From the human T2T-CHM13v2.0 reference genome, Homo sapiens: DNA of 64,000 bases. Within the stretch, counting starts at the first letter, position 1. Every line of letters begins with the position of its first letter. A program made the position numbers and the translations under genes. Shown piece by piece: positions 4,141 to 29,269 of this stretch. The notes beneath the pieces are model-generated. The model was not told the DNA's origin, did not search any database, and saw only the letters and a program-made list of their open reading frames with translations. The stretch lies in NCBI RefSeq assembly GCF_009914755.1, contig NC_060936.1; one strand, 5' to 3'.

Positions 4141-6362
4141 TGTAACTAGCCCCAGAGTTCTAATCTGTCATCTGGGTTTTGGATACAGTATCTTCTTCTT
4201 TTTTTTGAGACAGAGTCTTCCTCTGTTGCCCACCTCAGCTCACTGCAACCTCCACTTCCTGGGTTCAAGTGATTCTCGTGCCTCAGCCTCCTGAGTAGCT
4301 GGGATTACAGATGCATGCCACCATGCCCGGCTAATTTTTGTATTTTTAGTAGAGTCAGGGTTTCAACATGTTGTTCAGGCTGGTCTGTCTGCCTCGGCCT
4401 CCCAAAGTGCTGGGATTACAGGCATAAGCCACTGTCCCCAGACTGGATACCTTATCTTATCATGCCATTAGGGCCAATTGTCATATTATCTCCAGGCAAA
4501 AGTGATCAAGCATCAAATGTGCACTCTTACATTCCAACTATGGAGTGATAACCAGACTGTTAGTCTGCACAGGCTGTAATATCTCTGATATTACAAGCTC
4601 TGAAGGCAACTGAGCATGGCAATTCTGGCCATGGTCTACAACAGCATAATAGAGATCATCTGGCTCAAAATTTAAATTTAGCTCCTATACTGTAATCACC
4701 TTGAGAGCAAAAATCCCTTTGTGTCCATCAAGACTTATTACTCAAGGCCTTGTATGGTGTCTAACAGACCAATTGTTTTAGTATAATATGACCATGACTG
4801 CAGAAGGCTTACTGTACCTCCTTTCATGGGTAATAGGTGTCCCATTTAATAGAATTATTCAAAACCTTAATAGGCACACTTCAAACTGAAATTCCACGAA
4901 CTCTGGCAGCTACGTGAAAAAAGTTTTAAATGACGTGGAAAGAAGACCACTGTTACTTCTCAAGTCATGCCATTCCTAACAGTTCACTTACTTCCCATGA
5001 GCCCCAGATTCCACAGTTGCTTGGCTTGTAAGGCCATTTATTTCCTGAAAACAATTTTCTTTTCTGAGAAGATACATTAGCTTCAATGCAATTTGTTATG
5101 GAATCATACTAAAAACAGGATAGATTCTGATTCCAAATTGTTGTTAATGAATTAAAAAGCTGAGGATTTCCTTGTATCTTTGAGTGACATTCTTCTTCAA
5201 GTCTCATCACCATCTTTATGTCTCTTTGCAAGATGTAGTAAATTATTTGGGAAAGTTTTGGATCAGAGAAAGTTGTTCTCAGGCTCATGTCATTTTCTTT
5301 TCTGTTTAGAAATTCATGAAAGACATTTTAAGAAACAGAATGAGAGCTATTCTTGGAATCATGGAATTTTAAAGCAGGAACATAAATTTTGACATGATTT
5401 TTATATAATATATTACATAATTATATAATTACTATTAACCTTATTTTATTTATTAATTTATTGATCAAGACTCAAAGAAGTTTTCAGCATGGTTCAAACT
5501 GTGGAGTGATGACCTATTGAGTCATTAGCAGCTAGTGAAAGCCTTTTAGCTGTTGGTGACCATTAATAAAAAATAACTACAAAGCATTACAAAAGAAAAT
5601 AGAGTACGTCACATATAATCCTGGTAACTACAGTTTTATAAAACTTTTATTTGTACTTTATGAAAGTGTATGTGTGTGCCATACACATGTATGTGTGCAT
5701 TTGTGTGTATGCACTGGGCCATGCTATTTCTTACTTTGGGCTGTCTCAGTCAAAAAAGTACAAAAATCACTGATCTAAATGAATTACTGATAACCCAAAG
5801 GAAATAAATAGTGTATTAGGAAATTGAACACAGGTTGCCTACTCCACATTTGGTACAATTTGTTCTGTACCAAAATTCAGAAAGATATGATAAAACTGTA
5901 ATTTAAGGGATTTGGTATATTAGATTTATGAAGTCAAAATAGAGAAAACACTATAAAGTACAATAATCAAAATGATTCCATATTTCCAATAATTTTATAA
6001 ATTATTAGTTTGAGTGTAGATTGAAGTATAAATTGGCAGCTCTTATCAAAATTTAATTATGCATACCTTTTGCCCAAAAGTTCTATTTCCAAGTACACTT
6101 TAAGAGATATGCTAATATGTAAGCATATATCCACAAGGATGCTTATTGCAGTATTTATTAAGCAAGGCAATAAAGGGAAGAAAAAGGAGACTCATGCAGT
6201 ATCCATCAATAGGTGTCACTGTGGGACAACACAAAAATTGAAATTAGGCGTTAAGGTTTCATTCTGTAATAATCAATATTTTTGTTAGAACTCGGTTGAG
6301 GCCGGGTGCAGTGGCTCACGCCTGTAATCCCAGCACTTTGACAGGCCAAGGCAGGTGGATCA

Positions 6363-10831: not shown

Positions 10832-11195
10832 TAAAAAGCACTACTAAAAAAGCTTTAAAGGTATCTCTCGTAAGGGGAGAAGTTTTGCAATTCAGATGTC
10901 TATGAAGGGCTTATATGCAGAATATATAAATGATTCCTACAGGTAATAAAAAAAGATAAACAACTTAGAAAAAATTGGGCAAGATACTTGAACAGATATG
11001 TCACAAAAAGTGATTTTCCAATAACCAAAGAGCATTTGAAAATTGCTCAATTTCATTAATCATCAAAGAAAACTCAAATGTTATATAACTACATCCCACT
11101 ATAATGGCTAAAATGAAAAATACCTGAAAATTCCAAGTGTCAGTGAGGATGTGGAGCAAATAGATTTCTCAGGCTTGAGGGAGTATAACTAATAC

Positions 11196-11650
11196 TGAGA
11201 GGTGAAACCAGCTGGACATCCTGGGTGAGTAGGGATTTGGAGAACTTTTCTGTCTTACAAGAGGATTGTAAAATGCACCAATCAGCACTCTGTAGCTAGG
11301 ATTGTAAAACGCACCAATCGGCGCTCTGTAGCTAGGATTGTAAAACGCACCAATCAGCGCTCTGTAGCTAGCTAGAGGTTTGTAAAATGAACCAATCAGC
11401 AGGACATGGGTGGGGACAAATAAGGAAATAAAAGCTGGCCACCCCCCGCCAGCAGTGGCAACCTGCTTGGGTCCCCTTCCGATGCTGTGGAAACTTCGTT
11501 CTTTCGCTCTTCACAATAAATCTTGCTGCTGCTCACTCTTTGGGTCCATGCCACCTTTAAGAGATGTAACATTTACCGTGAAGGTCTGTGGCTTCATTCT
11601 TGAGGTCAGCGAGACCACGAACCCACCAGAAGGAACCAATTCCATACACA
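11196..11650 (+). mobile_element. Short LTR12-family (ERV9) solo LTR
   Basis: TGAGAGGTGAAACCAGCTGG start, tandem CACCAATC (NF-Y) repeats, ...ACACA end, imperfect 4-bp TSD atac/agac. Confidence 0.85.
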
Positions 11651-12794
11651 AGACATCAAAAGACATGTACAAAATAGCCATAACAGTTTTATTTATAATA
11701 GCGCCAAACTAGAAAACACCAGCAGTAAAGTGAATAAATGAAATGTGGTCTATTCACACAATGGAGTGCAATATAGTAATGAGAATGAAAAAACTACAAC
11801 CACAGCCAACAATATTATACATGGATCTCACAAACAATATATAAAATAAAAAATCCAACAGAGAGGATTATATCCTTTATAATTCTATTTATATGGATTT
11901 CCAAAGTACACTGGAAACGGTATTGTTAGATGTTTACCTACTGGTTATGTGATGGAGGATGGTAACTGAAAGAATGTACAAATGGGATTGGGGGTGTCAG
12001 CAATGTTTTTTCTTGACCTGGATGACAATTACATGAGTGTGTTCAATCTATGAAAGGTGTAGAAAAGAACAATGTAATTGTATGGTTTTTCGTATGCACT
12101 CAAACTTCAAAAACAACTTCAAAGTGTACTAAAAATTCTACTGAAGAAACTAGAAAAATAGGTTTAAGTAACCTAGAATGTGAGAAATATTTCAGTGTCT
12201 GAATGGATCCCACCTCCCCTTCAATTTTACTTTCAAGGCATTTCCCTTTCCGAAGTTGAGCAGCAGCTAAAATTCTTTCATGCCCTTGGTAGAAAATGTA
12301 AGGCTTCAGGCTCTGTGGAATCCTCACAGAGATAATTGATGCAACATTGTCATTTCTCTGGGTTAATGAGAGTTTATTATTTTCAGAAGGCTCTGGGGCA
12401 AGGATGAAGCATAGTGAATTGTAAAGTAACTGTGACTCACAGGGAGAGGGAGAACCCTGCTCCCTGTGAGCATGGCTTGTTCCTTCTGCTTCAACCCATC
12501 TGAAGAGGATTGTCGCAGATTGGATTTTTCAGAAGCAGATGCTAAAACAAAGTGGCATTTATTCCTAAAAAATAAATGTTTTTAGGAATTAACACCTTGG
12601 AAAGAAAGCAGAGTCGGGGAATGATGAGACAACAAAATGTGATACGAGAAGAATTTGAACTGTGATCCAGGCACAACAGAGACCAAGCTGAGTATCTGGA
12701 CCGAACTGAGGGTCAGGCTGCTATTTCTCATGGCCCAATAACAAGATGATAATGTACTGGGGAGGAAGAGAGTTTTTATCTCTGTAACCAATTA

Positions 12795-14404: not shown

Positions 14405-15672
14405 ATGGTACCACTCTGCATTTAAACAATAAGAAATTTTTAGTTACTCCTCCTCCTTGCCAGTATGTGGTATTGTAAAGTCTTTTTATTTTAGCTATTC
14501 TAATCATTGTGTATTGGTATTTGGTTGTGGTTTTAATTTGCATTTCTCTAATGACTAGTGATGTTAATTTCAGGTGCCTATTTTCTATCTGAGTATCTTC
14601 CCTGGGGAAGTATCTGTTCAAATCTTTTTGCCTATTGTTTACTCTTTAAAATTGAGTTATGAGAGTTCTTTATGTATTCTAGATACAAACTTATTAACTA
14701 TATGATGTGCAATTATTTTCTTCCAGACTATGGCTAGCCTTCCAATCTTTTAATGGTCTTTTGAAGAAGTAAAGTTTTTAATTTTCATAATATCTACCTT
14801 ATTAGTTTGTCCTTTGGTGTTGGTCTTATGTCCAAGAACTCTTTGCTTACCCAAGGTGACAAAGATTTTTCTTTTAAATTTTCTTCTTCCTAGTGTTGGT
14901 GATGAGAAATTGGAAGTCAATATAATTGTATTTCCTTTGAGTATTATGTGTTTTTCCACTCTGAAGTTTAGATGAAGATTTATGTTTTAGCTAAATCCTG
15001 AAAATTTCTCATTTATTGTTGTTATAATTATTATTGATTGTACTCTACTCCATTTAATATTTCTATAACTTGGATGCATATTGAAATTTCTGTATATGTA
15101 TCCTCCGTATCTCTTTTATATTCTTTGTCATTATTCCCCTTTTACTGTATTTTGGGAGAATTACTTATTTAGGTCTCTCGGGTCAAAATTTTTCTGGCAT
15201 TATCCATTCTGTTCTTCACCTACTATCTTAAGGATTTTCTTTCTATTTTCATAGGGCAAACTTTTATTTTTATAATCTATGGCTTTTAAAATTAATAAAA
15301 TATCGTTTAGTCTCTCTTTGAATATATTACTTATACTTCTTTTCTATATCTTCTCTGTTTTTTAAAACATGTTTCCTTGAGTGTAAAGTATTTCATTTGT
15401 TGTACTTACTGTTTTCATGGTCTTGCAAACCAAAAATGAAGATTTCTTCCTTCTCAGGGGAATCAAGGAAGAAGCCTCTCACTCAATTATGAGCCCCCAA
15501 AGCTGAAATTCTATTTAAGCCATTCCCTGAATTTTCTACATGAGAAAACAAATTATTTTCATGTGCCATATCACTACCAAAAATAAATATTAAATACAGT
15601 TCCATTATGTACATGGTGTGTTAGTGCTCTTCAACATTTAATAATCTACTACTACTGTACATAATCATATGA

Positions 15673-16162
<490 letters not shown>

Positions 16163-16207
16163 GTCCCGCTTCCTCTTTGCTGCACGCGCTCTCGTTGCCT
16201 GGCAACG

Positions 16208-16452
16208 GGAGGCGACGCCCGGATTGAGAGAGAGTAGGTGGGTGCATTGGGTGAGCGCCCACGACAGAGGCCGTTTTGACCGTTGGGCCTTGTCAGTTCC
16301 TTAGGACTCGCCTGGGTCTCCAGTCAGTGGCCGGAGGCGACTCCCGGATTGAGCCTAAGTGCGTGCGTTGGGTGCGCGCCCACCACAGAGGTGGTTTTGA
16401 CGGTTGGGCCGTGTGAGTTGCTAGGACTCACCTGGGTCTCCAGTCAGTGCCG
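16208..16452. repeat. Two diverged tandem copies of a ~120-bp GC-rich unit (16208-16332, 16333-16452)
   Basis: Both copies run GGAGGCGAC.CCCGGATTGAG...TTGGG...AGGACTC.CCTGGGTCTCCAGTCAGTG. Confidence 0.9.
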
Positions 16453-16456
16453 GGCT

Positions 16457-17011
16457 GCCGCCCCTGCCGCCGCCGCCGCCGCCCCTGCCGCCGCCGCCCC
16501 TGCCGCCGCCCCTGCCGCCGCCGCCGCCGCCCCTGCCGCCGCCGCCCCTGCCGCCGCCGCCCCTGCCGCCGCCGCCGCCGCCCCTGCCGCCGCCGCCGCC
16601 GCCGCCCCTGCCGCCGCCGCCGCCGCCGCCGCCGCCGCCCCTGCCGCCGCCGCCGCCGCCGCCGCCCCTGCCGCCGCCGCCGCCGCCGCCGCCCCTGCCG
16701 CCGCCGCCGCCGCCGCCGCCCCTGCCGCCGCCGCCGCCGCCGCCGCCCCTGCCGCCGCCGCCGCCGCCGCCGCCCCTGCCGCCGCCGCCGCCGCCGCCGC
16801 CCCTGCCGCCGCCGCCGCCGCCGCCGCCCCTGCCGCCGCCGCCGCCGCCGCCGCCCCTGCCGCCGCCGCCGCCGCCGCCGCCCCTGCCGCCGCCGCCGCC
16901 GCCGCCGCCCCTGCCGCCGCCGCCGCCGCCGCCGCCCCTGCCGCCGCCGCCGCCGCCGCCGCCCCTGCCGCCGCCGCCGCCGCCGCCGCCCCTGCCGCCG
17001 CCGCCGCCGCC
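16457..17011. repeat. Long interrupted GCC/CGG trinucleotide repeat: 185 triplets (162 GCC + 23 CCT)
   Basis: GCC runs of 2,6,4,3,6,4,4,6,7,10, then 13 runs of 8, then 6, each separated by CCT; counted by hand. Confidence 0.97.
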
Positions 17012-17127
17012 GCTCCTCTAGCGCTCCTCTAGCGCTCCTCTGTGGAGAGCGCCGCGGGCACCTGCAAGACGGGGGGGCGCCCCTTCCACAAACCCGAGTA
17101 GGAAAACCAACCTAAGGGCTCCAGGTG

Positions 17128-17295
17128 GAGCGTTGCCAGATACAATACAGTAACGCATGCGCAGTCAACTTTGAATTTCAGATAAACGAGTTACTTTTGA
17201 GTACAAATATAGTATCATACAAAGTTATTCGTTGGTTATCTGAAATTCAGGGTTACCTGGGAGTGCTGTGTTTATTTGCTGAGTCTGGCACCCCG
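17128..17295. mobile_element. MER53-like palindromic hAT MITE
   Basis: GTTGCCAGATA...TTTGAATTTCAGATAAAC...GTTATCTGAAATTCA...TCTGGCACCC, with internal inverted symmetry as I recall the MER53 consensus. Confidence 0.75.
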
Positions 17296-17486
17296 GCCCG
17301 GGCCGCCTCCCTGTCCACTCTGGCTGGGTCTCCCAGGCATGGGCAAGGGACCTCCTTCTACCTCCTGTGGCAACTTCTTCAGGCTGGAGGCAGCTGTCTC
17401 TGTGGAAAGGGGCTTTCGTATGTTGAGCCAAGATGCCTATTGGTGTATGTGAAAAATAACACTACTAGGCCGGGCACGGTGGCTCA

Positions 17487-17795
<309 letters not shown>

Positions 17796-18926
17796 TTAAA
17801 ACAGGAAAGTTGGGTTATTCTCGTCGTTCATGGACAGGAAACAAGTGCTCAGGGAGATGACAAGCCTTGCACACTTCCCACTGATATGCTCAGAATTCCC
17901 ACACAGAACCTTGACTTGGCCCAACCCTTAGGCCGGAAGTTTTCCCGTTAGAGATAATGGTCCCCTTCTCATATTCATCTTTCCGGAGCATCAGGAGGAG
18001 GCTGTTCCCGTTTTTATGTTATTTCACTTCAAGTGACGTTGAGATGTCTATGCAGTATTTTTGTCTTTGGAGTATATCATACTGAAGAAATACAGTGAAG
18101 ATACTGTGTTCCAAAGTCAGATGTAATAATGCTTTCCTCTATGTGGTTGAGACAGCAATGCCAACTCAATAGGGAATTAGGCTTATTTGTGCCATTTAGT
18201 TTTCAGTTTTAATGACTGTATTTACATATACATGCATGCACCTTTCTCTGCTGCTTTGTATTCCTTTCCCCAGTACAAAAGATGGCATACTGTGTGCAAT
18301 TTCTGCACCTTGCTTTCTTCACTTCACTCTGTGTCCTTGAGTTCACACCCTACTTTACAGAGCTTCCGCATTCTCTTGTATATCTGCACAATAATCCATT
18401 GTGTTGCTCTGCCTCATTAGTCCTGAATTTGATGAATATTCAAATGGAGCTCCAGTTTTACTATTGTAAATAACGGTGCAAATAACCATGTGCATCTGCC
18501 ATTTCATATTTTTGCAAGCATATCTTTGAGATAGGATCCAAGAAGTGAGATTGGTGGTCAAAGGATAAACACGTGATTTTGTAGATTTTGCCAAATTCTC
18601 CTCCATAGGGGTTATATCATTTTGTTCTTTCACGGCTACCATATGACACAAGAGCAGTACTGGAGCCTATGAACCTCAGGATGTCAATGTTTCTGAAATT
18701 TTATGCAAATATTAGGTATATTTGTCCAGGGATAGGTCTAGATGCATTGGCATTCTGTCCTCTATAACTGCCGTGCTCATTCCTGTATCAGGGCCCTTCC
18801 TCATACCTGGAAGGCTCTTCTCTTCTTTGCCTTGTTTTCTGTTATTTCAGTAAATTTAAACTGAGCTCAAATGTCACCCCTCAGAAAAGCTTTAATTCAC
18901 TTCCCTGACTTGTTCAGATCTCCTTT

Positions 18927-21580
<2,654 letters not shown>

Positions 21581-25886: not shown

Positions 25887-27897
25887 TGTGTTAGTCTGCT
25901 TGCATTACTATAAAAGAATACCTGAGGCTGGGTAATCTATAAAGAAAAGGGGTTAAGTTGACTCATAGTTCTACAGGCTGTGCATGAAGCATAGTGCCAG
26001 CATCTGCTTCTGATGAGGGCTTCAGGAAGCTTACAATCATGGTGGAAGGCAAAGGGGCGACAGTGTGCCACATGGTGAGAGTAGGAGCAAGCGAGATGCC
26101 AGACTCTTAAACAACAAGCTCTTGTGTGAACGAACAGTGAGAACTCATTACTTCAGGAGGGATCTACCCACATGACCCAAACACCTCCAAATAATACAGG
26201 AATTATTAAGAAATAACTTTTAGGCCGCTAGAAAGGGTAAAGGTTCTCAGTGGAAATTTTCCTGTAATAAGAAGCAACCCCCAAACCATTTCTTTTCTAA
26301 CAGAAAGGCAGCTTGAAAAACCAGGCCGGCAAGCTTTGATATGCAAATGCTGGCGATTAGAAACTGGGTCCACCCAACATGGCCAACAGGAAGAGTGCCA
26401 CCCTCTCCTCCTCATCACTACATGTGCCAAGTGTCATGATTGCCTCCAGATAACATGGATATCATGGTGACCTGCATTTGCATATTAAAGGAGTAAGGTA
26501 GGAGTGCCAGGTTTTTCACGGGCTATGTGAATGACACGCCTGGTCAAACCAATCTCCTGGGCCCTATGCAAATTAGACACCTCCTCCTCCAGCCTCCTGC
26601 TATAACAAACTACTCTGCCACACACGGGGTTTCTCTCTGGGAGCCCCCCTCCCTCTGTCCCTGTACTGGGAAGCTTCTTCCTTCTTTCTTGCTTATTAAA
26701 CTCTCCACTCCTTAAAACCACTCTACATGTGTCCATGTCGCTTTATCTAAAACGATGTTAGACCAAGGACCCTGCTGTTCTTCCATTCATCAGAGCAGTT
26801 ATCATTTTGGTTGCATTGACCGGGAATTCATTCATCGGAGTGGTGACTATAGAGCGAGCCCCAACCTCAAATCTCTCCTTCAATTTCAAGGCTCTCTTCT
26901 TACTATCCTGTTGCAAAATTTTCCTTCTTTCTCTATCCACGGTCTCTTACTCTCTCTCTGTGAAAAGTGCAGGGAGTTTTACAGTTCAGTGAAACAGGTC
27001 TGCTAGGAAAGATGGCAAACGCAGCAGGCAGTAACTCAACAAGCCCGCTCTCTGTGGCTGCGCTGGTGAGCATATAGTATTTCTAAGCCAACAGCGCCAC
27101 CTAGTGGAAGTAGAAATCCTCTTCAGGGGCCACATTTTTTACGGTAACACTGAACTTCCTTTTGCACCACCAGAAATCAGGCTCTAACCTACTTCTGTGA
27201 ACCGGAAAGTTCTGCCTTCAGCAATTAGAAGTAATATGTCCTCGACCGGGCATGGTGGCTTACGCCTGTAATCCCAACACTTTGGGAGGCCAAAGCGGGT
27301 GGATCACGAGGTCAGGAGTTCGAGACCAGCCTGGCCAATATGGTGAAACCCCGTCTCTACTAAAAACACAAAAATTAGCTGGGCGTGGTGGTGCACACCT
27401 GCGGTCCCAGCTGCTCAGGAGGCTGAGGCTATTGAATTGCTTAAAACGGGGAAGCAGAGGTTGCAGTGAGCTGAGATTACGTCACTGCACTCCAGCCTGG
27501 GTGACAGTGAGACTCTGTCTCAAAAAGAAGTAATATGTCTGCTGCCACATTTTAGTCTTGATATTGTCCCATAAGCAGGAAAATGGCCATTCTGTTCCTA
27601 CGCTCTTTTAAGACATCTAATCTGTTTCCTGTTAAAATGGTATAATTAGTAGGGAGATTTTAAGTTCAGAAGTTAACCAGAACCATTTTTCTGAGGGTAA
27701 ATGGTTTGGCACGGGCCATAATAGCAGGCAGTCTAGCACATTGCCTCTGTTAAAGGAGCCTTGACCAAAAACAACACAGTCTCTCCAAAGATCAATTTTT
27801 CAGGGAGCCAGGTAGATCACATAGGCTTAGGAAGTCAAAGGGAATCACACAAGGCAGATAAGCTAAGGTTGCGTGGGTAAAGTGTGGTTAATCCCAT

Positions 27898-29269
27898 TGA
27901 GAGGTGACAGCGTGCTAGCAGTCCTCACAGCTCTCGCTCACTCTCGGCGCCTCCTCTGCCTGGGCTCCCACTTTGGCGGCACTTGAGGAGCCCTTCAGCC
28001 CACCGCTGCACTGTGGGAGCCCCTTGCTGGGCTGGCCAAGGCCGCAGCCCGCTCCCTCAGCTTGCAGGGAGGTGTGGAGGGAGACGCGCGAGCGGGAACC
28101 GGGGCTGCGCGCGGCGCTTGCGGGCCAGCTGGAGTTCCGGGGGGGCGTGGGCTTGGCGGCCCCGCACTCGGAGCAGCCGGCCGGCCCTGCCGGCCCGGGG
28201 CAGTGAGGGGCTTAGCACCCGGGCCAGCGGCTGCGGAGGGTGTACTGGGTCCCCCAGCAGTGCCAGCCCACCGGCGCTGCGCTCGATTTCTCACCGGGCC
28301 TTAGCTGCCTTCCCGCGGGGCAGGCCTTGGGACTGCAGCCCGCCATGCCTGAGCCTTCCCCCGCCTCCGTGGGTTCCTGTGCAGCCGGAGCCTCCCCGAC
28401 GAGCGCCGCCCCCTGCTCCACGGCGCCCAGTCCCATCGACCGCCCACGGGCTGAGGAGTGCAAGCGCATGGCGCGGGACTGCAGCGCCGGTGCAGGATCC
28501 ACTGGGTGAAGCCAGCTGGGCTCCTGAGTCTGGTGAGGACGTGGAGAATTTATGTTTAGCTCAGGGATTGCAAATACACCAATGGACACTCTGTATCTAG
28601 CTCAAGGTTTGTAAACACACCAATCAGCACCCTGTGTCTAGCTCAGGGTTGTGAGCGCGCCAATCGACACTCTGTATCTAGCTGCTCTGGTGGGGCCTTG
28701 GAGAACCTTTGTGTGGATACTCTGTATCTAACTAATCTGATGGGGAGGAGGAGAACCTTTGTACCTAGCTCAGGGATTGTAAACGCACCAATCAGCGCCC
28801 TGTCAAAACAGACCACTCGCCTCTACCAATCAGCAGGATGTGGTTGGGGGGGGGGGGGGGGGGGCCAGATAAGAGAATAAAAGCAGGCTGCCCGAGTTGG
28901 TAGTAGTAACCCGCTCGGGTGTCTCTCTGCTTTGGTGGGGCTTTGTTCTTTCGCTCTTGGGGGTCCATACTACTTTTGTGAATTACAGCACTCACCACGA
29001 AAGCTTGCGAGACCACGAGCCTACCGGGAGGAACGAACAACTCCCGACGCGCTGCCTTAAGAGCTGTAACAGTGACCGCAAAGGTCTGCAGCTTTACTCC
29101 TGAGCCCGCCAGACCATGAACCCACCAGAAAGAAAAAACTGAACACACCTGCACATCAAAAGGAACAAACTCCAGACGCGCCACCTTAAGAGCTGTAACA
29201 CTCACCGTGAGAGTCTGCGGCTTCATTTTTGAAGTCAGTGAGACCAAGAACCCACCCATTCCGGACACA
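27898..29269 (+). mobile_element. LTR12C-type solo LTR inserted in the provirus
   Basis: TGAGAGGTGACAGCGTGCT start, CCGGACACA end, perfect CCAT TSD, CpG-rich U3 with CCAAT repeats. Confidence 0.93.

What the first reader, a model, noticed from the sequence alone, without database searches (positions are those of the whole stretch)
16457..17011. 185-triplet interrupted CCG/CGG repeat with a recently amplified 27-bp higher-order unit in an orphan CpG island
Seen: 555 bp of GCC broken by 23 CCT. The left part has irregular runs (2,6,4,3,6,4,4,6,7,10); the right part is 13 perfect [CCT(GCC)8] units. This polarity suggests recent expansion of the 27-mer rather than of pure triplets. On the minus strand each interruption reads GGC-AGG-GGC, which differs from the FMR1 CGG-AGG-CGG type and creates a GGGG run and a GGGGCGG Sp/KLF core 23 times. 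Established: CGG tracts of this size in CpG islands underlie folate-sensitive fragile sites, methylation silencing and FXTAS/NIID/OPDM-type disorders. Inference: this is a length-polymorphic CGG locus, possibly an expanded allele, that could act as a methylation switch or fragile site near APOBEC1. No coding gene explains it.
Basis: partly seen in the sequence, partly recalled or inferred. Interest (0 to 1): 0.9.

Follow-up and report, generated by a model that had tools for sequence, protein, structure and literature searches.

The report
Long CGG repeat in dead promoter
This is a real, already catalogued CGG repeat that is long in healthy people and sits in a broken copy of the start of the DYDC2/DYDC1 genes; the DNA beside it is among the most variably methylated in humans, and repeat length or haplotype likely helps set that methylation, which is untested.

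Summary
The locus is catalogued (GRCh38 chr12:7628698-7628789, 92 bp). In 270 healthy HiFi genomes its median is 334 bp and its longest allele 666 bp, so the 555-bp CHM13 allele is long but within the healthy range, not a rare expansion. Published mismatch rates (0.09-0.10) imply long alleles stay interrupted, so growth is by interrupted blocks. The longest pure run is 10, and the fragile-site review searched names no 12p13 site. The island is not truly orphan. It is a rearranged copy of the DYDC1/DYDC2 head-to-head promoter (chr10), with X-box, splice donor and 62 bp of DYDC2 coding exon. A second copy lies at chr12:8.548 Mb. Both relatives carry only a short CCT-rich motif at the repeat site, so the CCT interruptions are likely relics of the seed. 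Array CpGs 6 and 201 bp left of the tract are published hypervariable CpGs (beta 0.57 versus 0.81-0.84 by ancestry). Each interruption also creates a ZFP57 hexamer (24 in all). Length versus methylation is untested. Verdict: known kind, likely benign, with an origin and an epigenetic lead I did not find in print.

The parts
16457..17011 (.). Interrupted GCC/CGG tract, 185 triplets; CHM13 chr12:7,642,457-7,643,011; GRCh38 catalogue locus 12:7628698-7628789
16457..16639 (.). Left, irregular block (runs 2,6,4,3,6,4,4,6,7,10); holds an exact 48-nt block duplication (16463-16510 = 16511-16558)
16640..16990 (.). 13 perfect 27-nt units CCT(GCC)8; self-register mismatch 0 at shifts 27 and 54, about 0.15 at every other multiple of 3 tested
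16456..16998 (+). 24 TGCCGC hexamers (ZFP57 motif): one made by each of the 23 interruptions plus one at the left edge; only 2 more in the rest of the window
   Evidence: motif as written in PMC8120134
17011..17041 (.). 11-bp unit x2.8, CTC-rich, at the right edge of the tract
16208..16456 (.). Tandem duplication of about 125 bp (copies about 85% identical); single copy in both paralogs
16194..16206 (.). X-box-like palindrome (RFX site; motif recalled), identical in all three copies
16426..16434 (-). Perfect 9/9 splice-donor consensus 22 nt past the tract on the minus strand; homologous to the donor at chr10:81,225,696 that faces the DYDC2 coding exon
15722..15783 (-). 62-bp piece of the DYDC2 Dpy-30 coding exon (60 of 62 identical to chr10:81,231,541-81,231,602), ATG at 15778, homology ends after about 19 codons; absent beside the 8.548 Mb copy
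16182..18929 (.). Duplicated DYDC1/DYDC2 promoter and intron fragment, homologous to chr10:81,224,116-81,225,879 (75-84% in the long pieces) and, over 16086-18528, to chr12:8,546,810-8,548,486 (78-93% by blastn)
15247..15550 (.). AT-rich flank piece that reappears as an insertion inside the 8.548 Mb copy (88%); suggests that copy was made from this locus
16167..16452 (.). Array CpGs: VMR start hg19 7781004 = 16167, cg10578777 = 16256, cg25828445 = 16451
17128..17292 (.). Small inverted-repeat element (MER53-like; name and approximate ends recalled, not tested); full length in both chr12 copies, internally deleted on chr10

Best explanation
The tract is a common, length-variable CGG repeat inside a broken copy of the DYDC2/DYDC1 5' end; it likely grew from a short CCT-rich seed by slippage of interrupted blocks, and it likely acts as a benign, cis-influenced, variably methylated island rather than a disease or fragile site. 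Shown: the sequence, the two paralogs, the CCT-rich state of both paralogs, the healthy length range and the published hypervariable methylation of the left flank. Inferred history: an old duplication (about 18% divergence) put the DYDC promoter on 12p13, and a later one (about 6%) copied it to 8.548 Mb while the site was still CCT-rich. GCC runs then arose beside the CCT seed. Inferred mechanism: slipped strands realign without mismatch only at whole-block offsets, so blocks that include a CCT are copied and pure runs stay short. The island has kept its CpGs, which suggests low germline methylation. In blood it is mostly methylated, at a level likely set early in development and biased by haplotype, of which repeat length is the most obvious candidate.
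For: Paralogs and ancestral state: (both relatives have a short CCT-rich motif and no GCC run). Gene identity: Dpy-30 exons face away from each other at chr10:81,221,581 (-) and 81,231,546 (+) around the homologous island, and 62 bp of the + exon is in the window; the names DYDC1/DYDC2 are recalled. Divergence: 34 of 545 columns differ between the chr12 copies, 18% versus chr10. Length: median 334 bp, longest 666 bp, mismatch rate 0.099 on average and 0.09 in the longest; CHM13 is 0.084 and pure-triplet growth would give 0.033 and 0.017. Register: zero mismatch only at shifts 27 and 54. CpG o/e 0.77, 0.81 and 0.80 in the three copies. Methylation: 2 of 3 probes searched are in the 4143-CpG hypervariable list; beta 0.57 vs 0.84 and 0.57 vs 0.81 in naive CD4 T cells by ancestry; listed as a VMR-overlapping region.
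Against: No dataset I could read joins repeat length to methylation. The one STR-methylation study searched has no row for it, but its main table was cut, one file was unreadable and its genotyper is limited to alleles shorter than a read. The hypervariable-CpG paper says mQTLs explain a median of only 4% of variance across that set, which argues against strong cis control in general. Germline methylation was not observed; it is inferred from CpG retention. No ape or monkey sequence was available, so dating and the seed model rest on two paralogs. The left flank differs between the chr12 copies by 14-16%, far more than the distal 6%, which the simple history does not explain. The population length data are from one population, in EBV-transformed B cells.
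Confidence: 0.6

Rival explanations
1. Methylation of the flank varies for reasons unrelated to repeat length: chance in the early embryo, linked SNPs, or nearby LTR-type elements. The repeat is a passenger.
For: Hypervariable CpGs as a set are 'influenced but not determined' by genotype, median 4% of variance from mQTLs, and are enriched near ERV1/ERVK. The window has CCAAT-rich tandem-repeat segments at 11150-11700 and 27880-28760 (LTR12-like by recall). The region turns up in unrelated exposure studies, as noisy loci do.
Against: An ancestry difference of 0.24-0.27 in beta at two probes 195 bp apart points to a heritable cis factor. The nearest large variant is the tract, 6 bp from one probe.
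Confidence: 0.3
2. ZFP57 lock: each interruption adds a TGCCGC site, so longer alleles carry more sites; once methylated they would bind ZFP57-TRIM28 and resist erasure in the embryo, giving a length-tuned metastable epiallele.
For: 24 hexamers in the tract versus 2 in the other 63 kb; a pure GCC run contains none. Interruptions scale with length. Human metastable epialleles are enriched near ZFP57 sites, and the mouse IG-DMR tandem repeat with five such motifs is needed to keep its methylation (passages).
Against: Clusters of three hexamers are common: 528 matches genome-wide versus 427 for the reversed control, including a long array on chr6. ZNF445 rather than ZFP57 may dominate in human embryos. 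No binding data were seen. The model needs methylation in a gamete, which sits badly with CpG retention.
Confidence: 0.12
3. The island is still a promoter in testis or ciliated cells, making an unannotated minus-strand RNA whose first exon holds the CGG tract and which could splice to the DYDC2 exon remnant.
For: Intact X-box-like palindrome, perfect donor 22 nt past the tract, and an ATG-bearing exon piece about 650 bp further on the same strand. In the left flank the 8.548 Mb copy has lost more G/C than this one (8 vs 0 strong-to-weak changes against the chr10 outgroup; small numbers).
Against: No RefSeq model here (annotation given) and listed as intergenic in two catalogues. The original acceptor of the exon piece is not retained. 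The polyGly and polyAla frames on the minus strand have a stop a few codons before the tract, so an FMRpolyG-type product is not expected.
Confidence: 0.15
4. An FMR1-type folate-sensitive fragile site or disease locus; CHM13 carries a premutation-like allele.
For: 185 triplets in a CpG island. Nominal p = 0.0346 for length deviation in autism probands versus siblings.
Against: Healthy median about 111 triplets and longest about 222; longest pure run 10; no 12p13 site in the review's text; no intact gene at the island. The autism signal is absent from the table of regions surviving correction, comes from short reads on alleles longer than a read, and the authors' code drops this locus from plots.
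Confidence: 0.04
5. The 13 perfect units are an assembly or polishing artefact.
For: Perfect homogeneity in 96% GC sequence; raw reads were not available to me.
Against: Independent HiFi data show alleles up to 666 bp with a similar interruption density (versus 0.084 here).
Confidence: 0.03

Closest known systems
This locus in published catalogues (Annear 2022, PMC9808627, ID 12.7628698 / 12.7781294; Ichikawa 2023, PMC10502081, TR 1435113)
   Same: Same place, CCG unit, intergenic, long and variable.
   Different: The rows I saw treat it as a plain (GCC)n or CCG unit. They give no block structure, origin or methylation link.
Folate-sensitive fragile-site CGG repeats (FMR1, AFF2, DIP2B, XYLT1)
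   Same: CGG tract in a CpG island, in what was a first exon upstream of a splice donor; interruptions spaced like FMR1's AGG blocks (recalled).
   Different: Here long alleles are the norm, stay interrupted about every 7-8 triplets, use a two-base interruption and belong to no intact gene. Methylation is common and variable rather than rare and expansion-triggered.
Hypervariable CpGs / metastable epialleles (Derakhshan 2022, PMC9749461; Kessler 2018, PMC6040841)
   Same: Two flank probes are on the hypervariable list; intermediate, person-specific methylation.
   Different: Neither paper's passages mention tandem repeats (0 hits for the term). I did not see whether this region is on the metastable-epiallele list itself.
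DYDC1/DYDC2 head-to-head promoter, chr10 (names recalled)
   Same: X-box-like palindrome, donor, intron fragment and start of the DYDC2 coding exon.
   Different: Most of the 5.8-kb intron and all further coding sequence are missing in the 74 kb compared; chr10 has no GCC tract.
Mouse IG-DMR tandem repeat with ZFP57 motifs (PMC8120134)
   Same: Tandem array of TGCCGC sites in a region of variable methylation.
   Different: That one is an imprinting control region with shown binding; nothing of the kind is shown here.

Membership tests
Folate-sensitive fragile-site CGG locus | CGG/CCG tract in a CpG island | tested here: met
Folate-sensitive fragile-site CGG locus | Long uninterrupted run in the long allele | tested here: not met
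   longest pure run 10; longest published allele has mismatch rate 0.09
Folate-sensitive fragile-site CGG locus | Long alleles rare, normal alleles short | tested here: not met
   healthy median 334 bp, longest 666 bp in 270 people
Folate-sensitive fragile-site CGG locus | Cytogenetic break at the band under folate stress | not testable with these tools
   '12p13' has 0 hits in the main text of PMC9714581; no experiment possible
Folate-sensitive fragile-site CGG locus | Methylation follows expansion on the same allele | not testable with these tools
   no phased length and 5mC data found (inconclusive)
Hypervariable CpG / variably methylated region | Top-variance methylation across tissues and ancestries | tested here: met
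   cg10578777 and cg25828445 in Table S5 of PMC9749461, cg14906510 not; positions map to CpGs 16256 and 16451
Metastable epiallele | Systemic variation not fixed by genotype, set in the early embryo | not tested
   shown for the hypervariable set as a whole, not for this locus; the metastable-epiallele table was not read
Unprocessed gene fragment (duplicated pseudogene) of DYDC2/DYDC1 | Homology to promoter, exon and intron sequence of a parent gene, with a broken coding part | tested here: met
Processed pseudogene | Exon-exon junctions without introns, poly(A) tail | tested here: not met
   intron sequence is retained and the donor is not joined to the coding exon
ZFP57-maintained methylated region | Clustered TGCCGC motifs | tested here: met
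   24 motifs; such clusters are common genome-wide
ZFP57-maintained methylated region | Methyl-dependent ZFP57/TRIM28 binding; gametic methylation | not testable with these tools
   no data seen

The most novel reading that the evidence does not exclude
A repeat born inside a dead duplicated promoter works as a length-tuned epigenetic lock: every block it adds carries the ancestral CCT, every CCT creates a ZFP57 site, and so allele length sets the odds that the island stays methylated through early development. That would give one of the most variable human methylation sites a hidden genetic cause that SNP arrays and short reads cannot see, and a common natural allelic series of long but harmless CGG tracts for testing how interruptions prevent fragility.
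Probability: 0.12. Interest if true: 0.75.

Novelty: new member of a known kind. Interest (0 to 1): 0.38.

Why it matters
It removes a false alarm: a 185-triplet CGG allele here is within the healthy range. It shows, from two paralogs in the same genome, how a CGG tract can be born from a CCT-rich seed in a copied promoter. It offers a cheap test case for a standing question, whether hidden long repeats explain hypervariable CpGs that SNPs do not. It also warns that the recurrent EWAS hit at hg19 chr12:7,781,004-7,781,431 (assigned to NIFKP3 or left intergenic) may track repeat alleles rather than exposures.

Tried and rejected
Coding function: no ATG upstream of the tract midpoint in any of six open stretches. 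Canonical G-quadruplex: 0 matches with G3 tracts and loops up to 12; G4Hunter mean 1.37 against 1.0 for pure CGG by arithmetic (the 'pure' slice in that script included an interruption, so its 1.33 is not a valid control). Folding: the G-rich strand folds far better than shuffles (z -11), the C-rich strand worse (z +4); expected for CGG and not discriminating. Promoter-motif scan found single NRF1-, CHR- and MYB-like words; not pursued, chance level not tested. Further DYDC exons: none found in the window or 10 kb upstream against 40 kb of chr10. Lectin search to place the 8.548 Mb copy gave no 12p13 hit among 35; the APOBEC search placed a deaminase gene (AICDA, name recalled) 40 kb away. The pattern had a run length the tract lacks and found nothing. 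Literature: the coordinate search returned only number coincidences in the 40 of 200 papers listed; searches listed no paper about this locus, its DYDC origin or a ZFP57 link (titles and abstract starts only). Annear 2021's five supplements have no row under the terms tried. The single supplement of PMC13142565 has none. Garg 2020's main text does not name it, but its Table S10 was closed. The Jadhav GC-rich repeat study could not be read. One probe id I recalled (cg20815832) was in 0 of the 6 papers returned.

Full report
Observation. Window 16457-17011 holds 162 GCC and 23 CCT, with GCC runs 2,6,4,3,6,4,4,6,7,10, thirteen of 8 and a last 6. The perfect 27-mers span 16640-16990, the longest pure run is 10, and 13 equal runs in a row arose with p = 1e-5 in 200,000 permutations. 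A two-interruption pattern matched 22 times in CHM13, all within this tract. The left part is not random either: 16463-16510 is repeated exactly at 16511-16558. The island does not depend on the repeat; the flanks alone have GC 0.62 and CpG o/e 0.77.

The locus is catalogued, and the allele is within the healthy range. Annear et al. 2022 (PMC9808627; passages, supplement searches and one supplement part seen, file 1 unreadable) list it as 12:7628698-7628789, 92 bp in GRCh38, intergenic between CD163 and APOBEC1; their code drops hg19 ID 12.7781294 from several plots. It has nominal p = 0.0346 for length deviation in autism probands and is not in their corrected table. Ichikawa et al. 2023 (PMC10502081; passages and one supplement row seen) give chr12:7628695-7628789, unit CCG, median 334 bp, longest 666 bp, mismatch rate 0.099 on average and 0.09 in the longest, for 270 healthy Japanese HiFi genomes from EBV-transformed B cells. 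The column is headed 'Median TR length in hg38'; I read it as the sample median because the listed span is only 95 bp and the text defines the table by longest minus median. CHM13 scores 0.084 on the same measure; pure-triplet growth from a five-interruption core (taken from CHM13's first 92 bp as a proxy) would give 0.033 and 0.017. So long alleles stay interrupted about every 7 triplets. A model of the CHM13 left block plus 27-mers predicts 0.090 at 344 bp and 0.082 at 668 bp, slightly below the published rates, so other alleles likely use shorter blocks. Within the right block, self-register mismatch is 0 at shifts 27 and 54 and about 0.15 at the other 17 of 19 shifts tested, which fits slippage by whole blocks (inference).

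Origin. Both flanks have a paralog at chr12:8,546,810-8,548,486, minus strand, and an older one at chr10:81,224,116-81,225,879. The chr10 island lies between two Dpy-30 exons that point away from each other; I recall this pair as DYDC1 and DYDC2. The window also holds 62 bp of the DYDC2 coding exon at 15722-15783 (60 of 62 identical), an X-box-like palindrome at 16194-16206 and a perfect minus-strand donor at 16434-16426 that matches the chr10 donor. No other DYDC exon was found. Intron sequence is kept, so this is a rearranged genomic copy, not a processed one. At the repeat site both relatives have only a short CCT-rich motif and no GCC run. By parsimony the GCC tract arose in this copy, and its CCT interruptions are likely relics of that seed. 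The chr12 copies differ at 34 of 545 distal columns (6%), and this copy differs from chr10 by 18% there. With a recalled human-macaque neutral divergence of 6-7%, that suggests roughly 25-30 million years and about three times older. The 8.548 Mb copy contains a 304-bp piece of this locus's own flank as an insertion and lacks the exon piece, so it was likely made from this one. Unexplained: the left flank differs by 14-16% between the chr12 copies, and the two 125-bp tandem copies differ by 15% from each other.

Methylation. With the catalogue start anchored at 16457, hg19 7781004, 7781093 and 7781288 land on CpGs at 16167, 16256 and 16451; 4 of 601 offsets do this, and offset 0 is one. cg10578777 and cg25828445 are among 4143 hypervariable CpGs; cg14906510 is not (Derakhshan 2022, PMC9749461; passages and two supplement rows). 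In naive CD4 T cells their mean beta is 0.57 versus 0.84 and 0.57 versus 0.81 in African-American versus European-American donors (PMC4659164, passages). The region appears as a VMR-overlapping DMR in a DHA trial (PMC5096291, passages), a COVID meta-EWAS (PMC13263947, one passage) and a 20-patient bariatric study (PMC10572880, passages). So it is usually methylated in blood and varies between people. Against a strong cis cause, mQTLs explain a median 4% of variance in that set. Martin-Trujillo 2023 (PMC10069470; passages and supplement search) has no row for the locus, but the table was cut and the method cannot type alleles longer than a read. Probe cross-hybridisation to the 8.548 Mb copy (83-85% identical there) was not excluded by me.

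Mechanism. Most likely (0.6): a copied promoter kept its CpGs, a CCT-rich seed gave rise to GCC runs, block slippage lengthens the tract while keeping pure runs short, and somatic methylation varies with haplotype and likely length, without harm. The boldest reading (0.12): each interruption makes the hexamer TGCCGC, 24 here against 2 in the rest of the window, the ZFP57 motif (PMC8120134, passages). Metastable epialleles are enriched near ZFP57 sites (PMC6040841, passages), so length could tune how well methylation survives in the embryo. Against it, triple clusters of the hexamer are common (528 matches versus 427 for the control), ZNF445 may matter more in humans, and I saw no binding data. 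Other rivals are a passenger repeat (0.3), a residual promoter in testis or ciliated cells (0.15), a fragile or disease site (0.04) and an artefact (0.03); they are not all exclusive.

Comparison and novelty. It resembles fragile-site CGG loci in unit, island and former first-exon position, but fails two defining tests (long pure run; rarity of long alleles), and the review searched (PMC9714581, passages) has no '12p13'. It is a published hypervariable-CpG site and a catalogued polymorphic CGG repeat. I did not find the DYDC origin, the CCT seed, the block structure or the ZFP57 motifs in print in searches (listings only), nor in Annear 2021 (PMC7844047; passages and five supplements), PMC13142565 (passages, one supplement) or Garg 2020 (bioRxiv 10.1101/2020.03.25.007864; passages and section 21; supplements closed). 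Subscription papers and several supplements were not visible. Verdict: real, a known kind, likely benign; interest 0.38, mainly for a direct and cheap test of length against methylation.

Noticed in passing
G000:C12:8,546,810-8,548,486 (L002, L014): Second copy of the DYDC promoter fragment, about 40 kb from a deaminase gene (AICDA, name recalled), while this copy is 20.6 kb from APOBEC1. It keeps the X-box-like site and the donor, has CpG o/e 0.81 and only a CCT-rich motif. A natural no-repeat control for methylation.
   Followed up: partly
window 16086-16456: Left flank is 14-16% diverged from the 8.548 Mb copy, against 2-7% right of the repeat; could be local hypermutation or an older, chimeric tandem duplication.
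   Followed up: partly
window 17011-17059: If hg19 7781431 is a CpG, it maps 11 bp short of the CpG at 17070, which would fit one fewer 11-bp unit in the older reference.
   Followed up: no
window 27880-29269 and 11150-11700: CCAAT-rich segments with 36- and 41-bp tandem units (LTR12-like by recall). The one at 27898-28714 is a second CpG island, overlaps an annotated silencer and is 81% identical to an element in the DYDC2 intron on chr10; probably independent insertions.
   Followed up: partly
G000:C6:2,959,649-2,960,739 and beyond: A 31-bp tandem array with one TGCCGC per unit, at least 35 units, seen.
   Followed up: no
L019 about 5500-5950 (chr10:81,226,000-81,226,450): The chr10 parent island has its own degenerate C-rich tandem repeat just beyond the duplicated part.
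   Followed up: no
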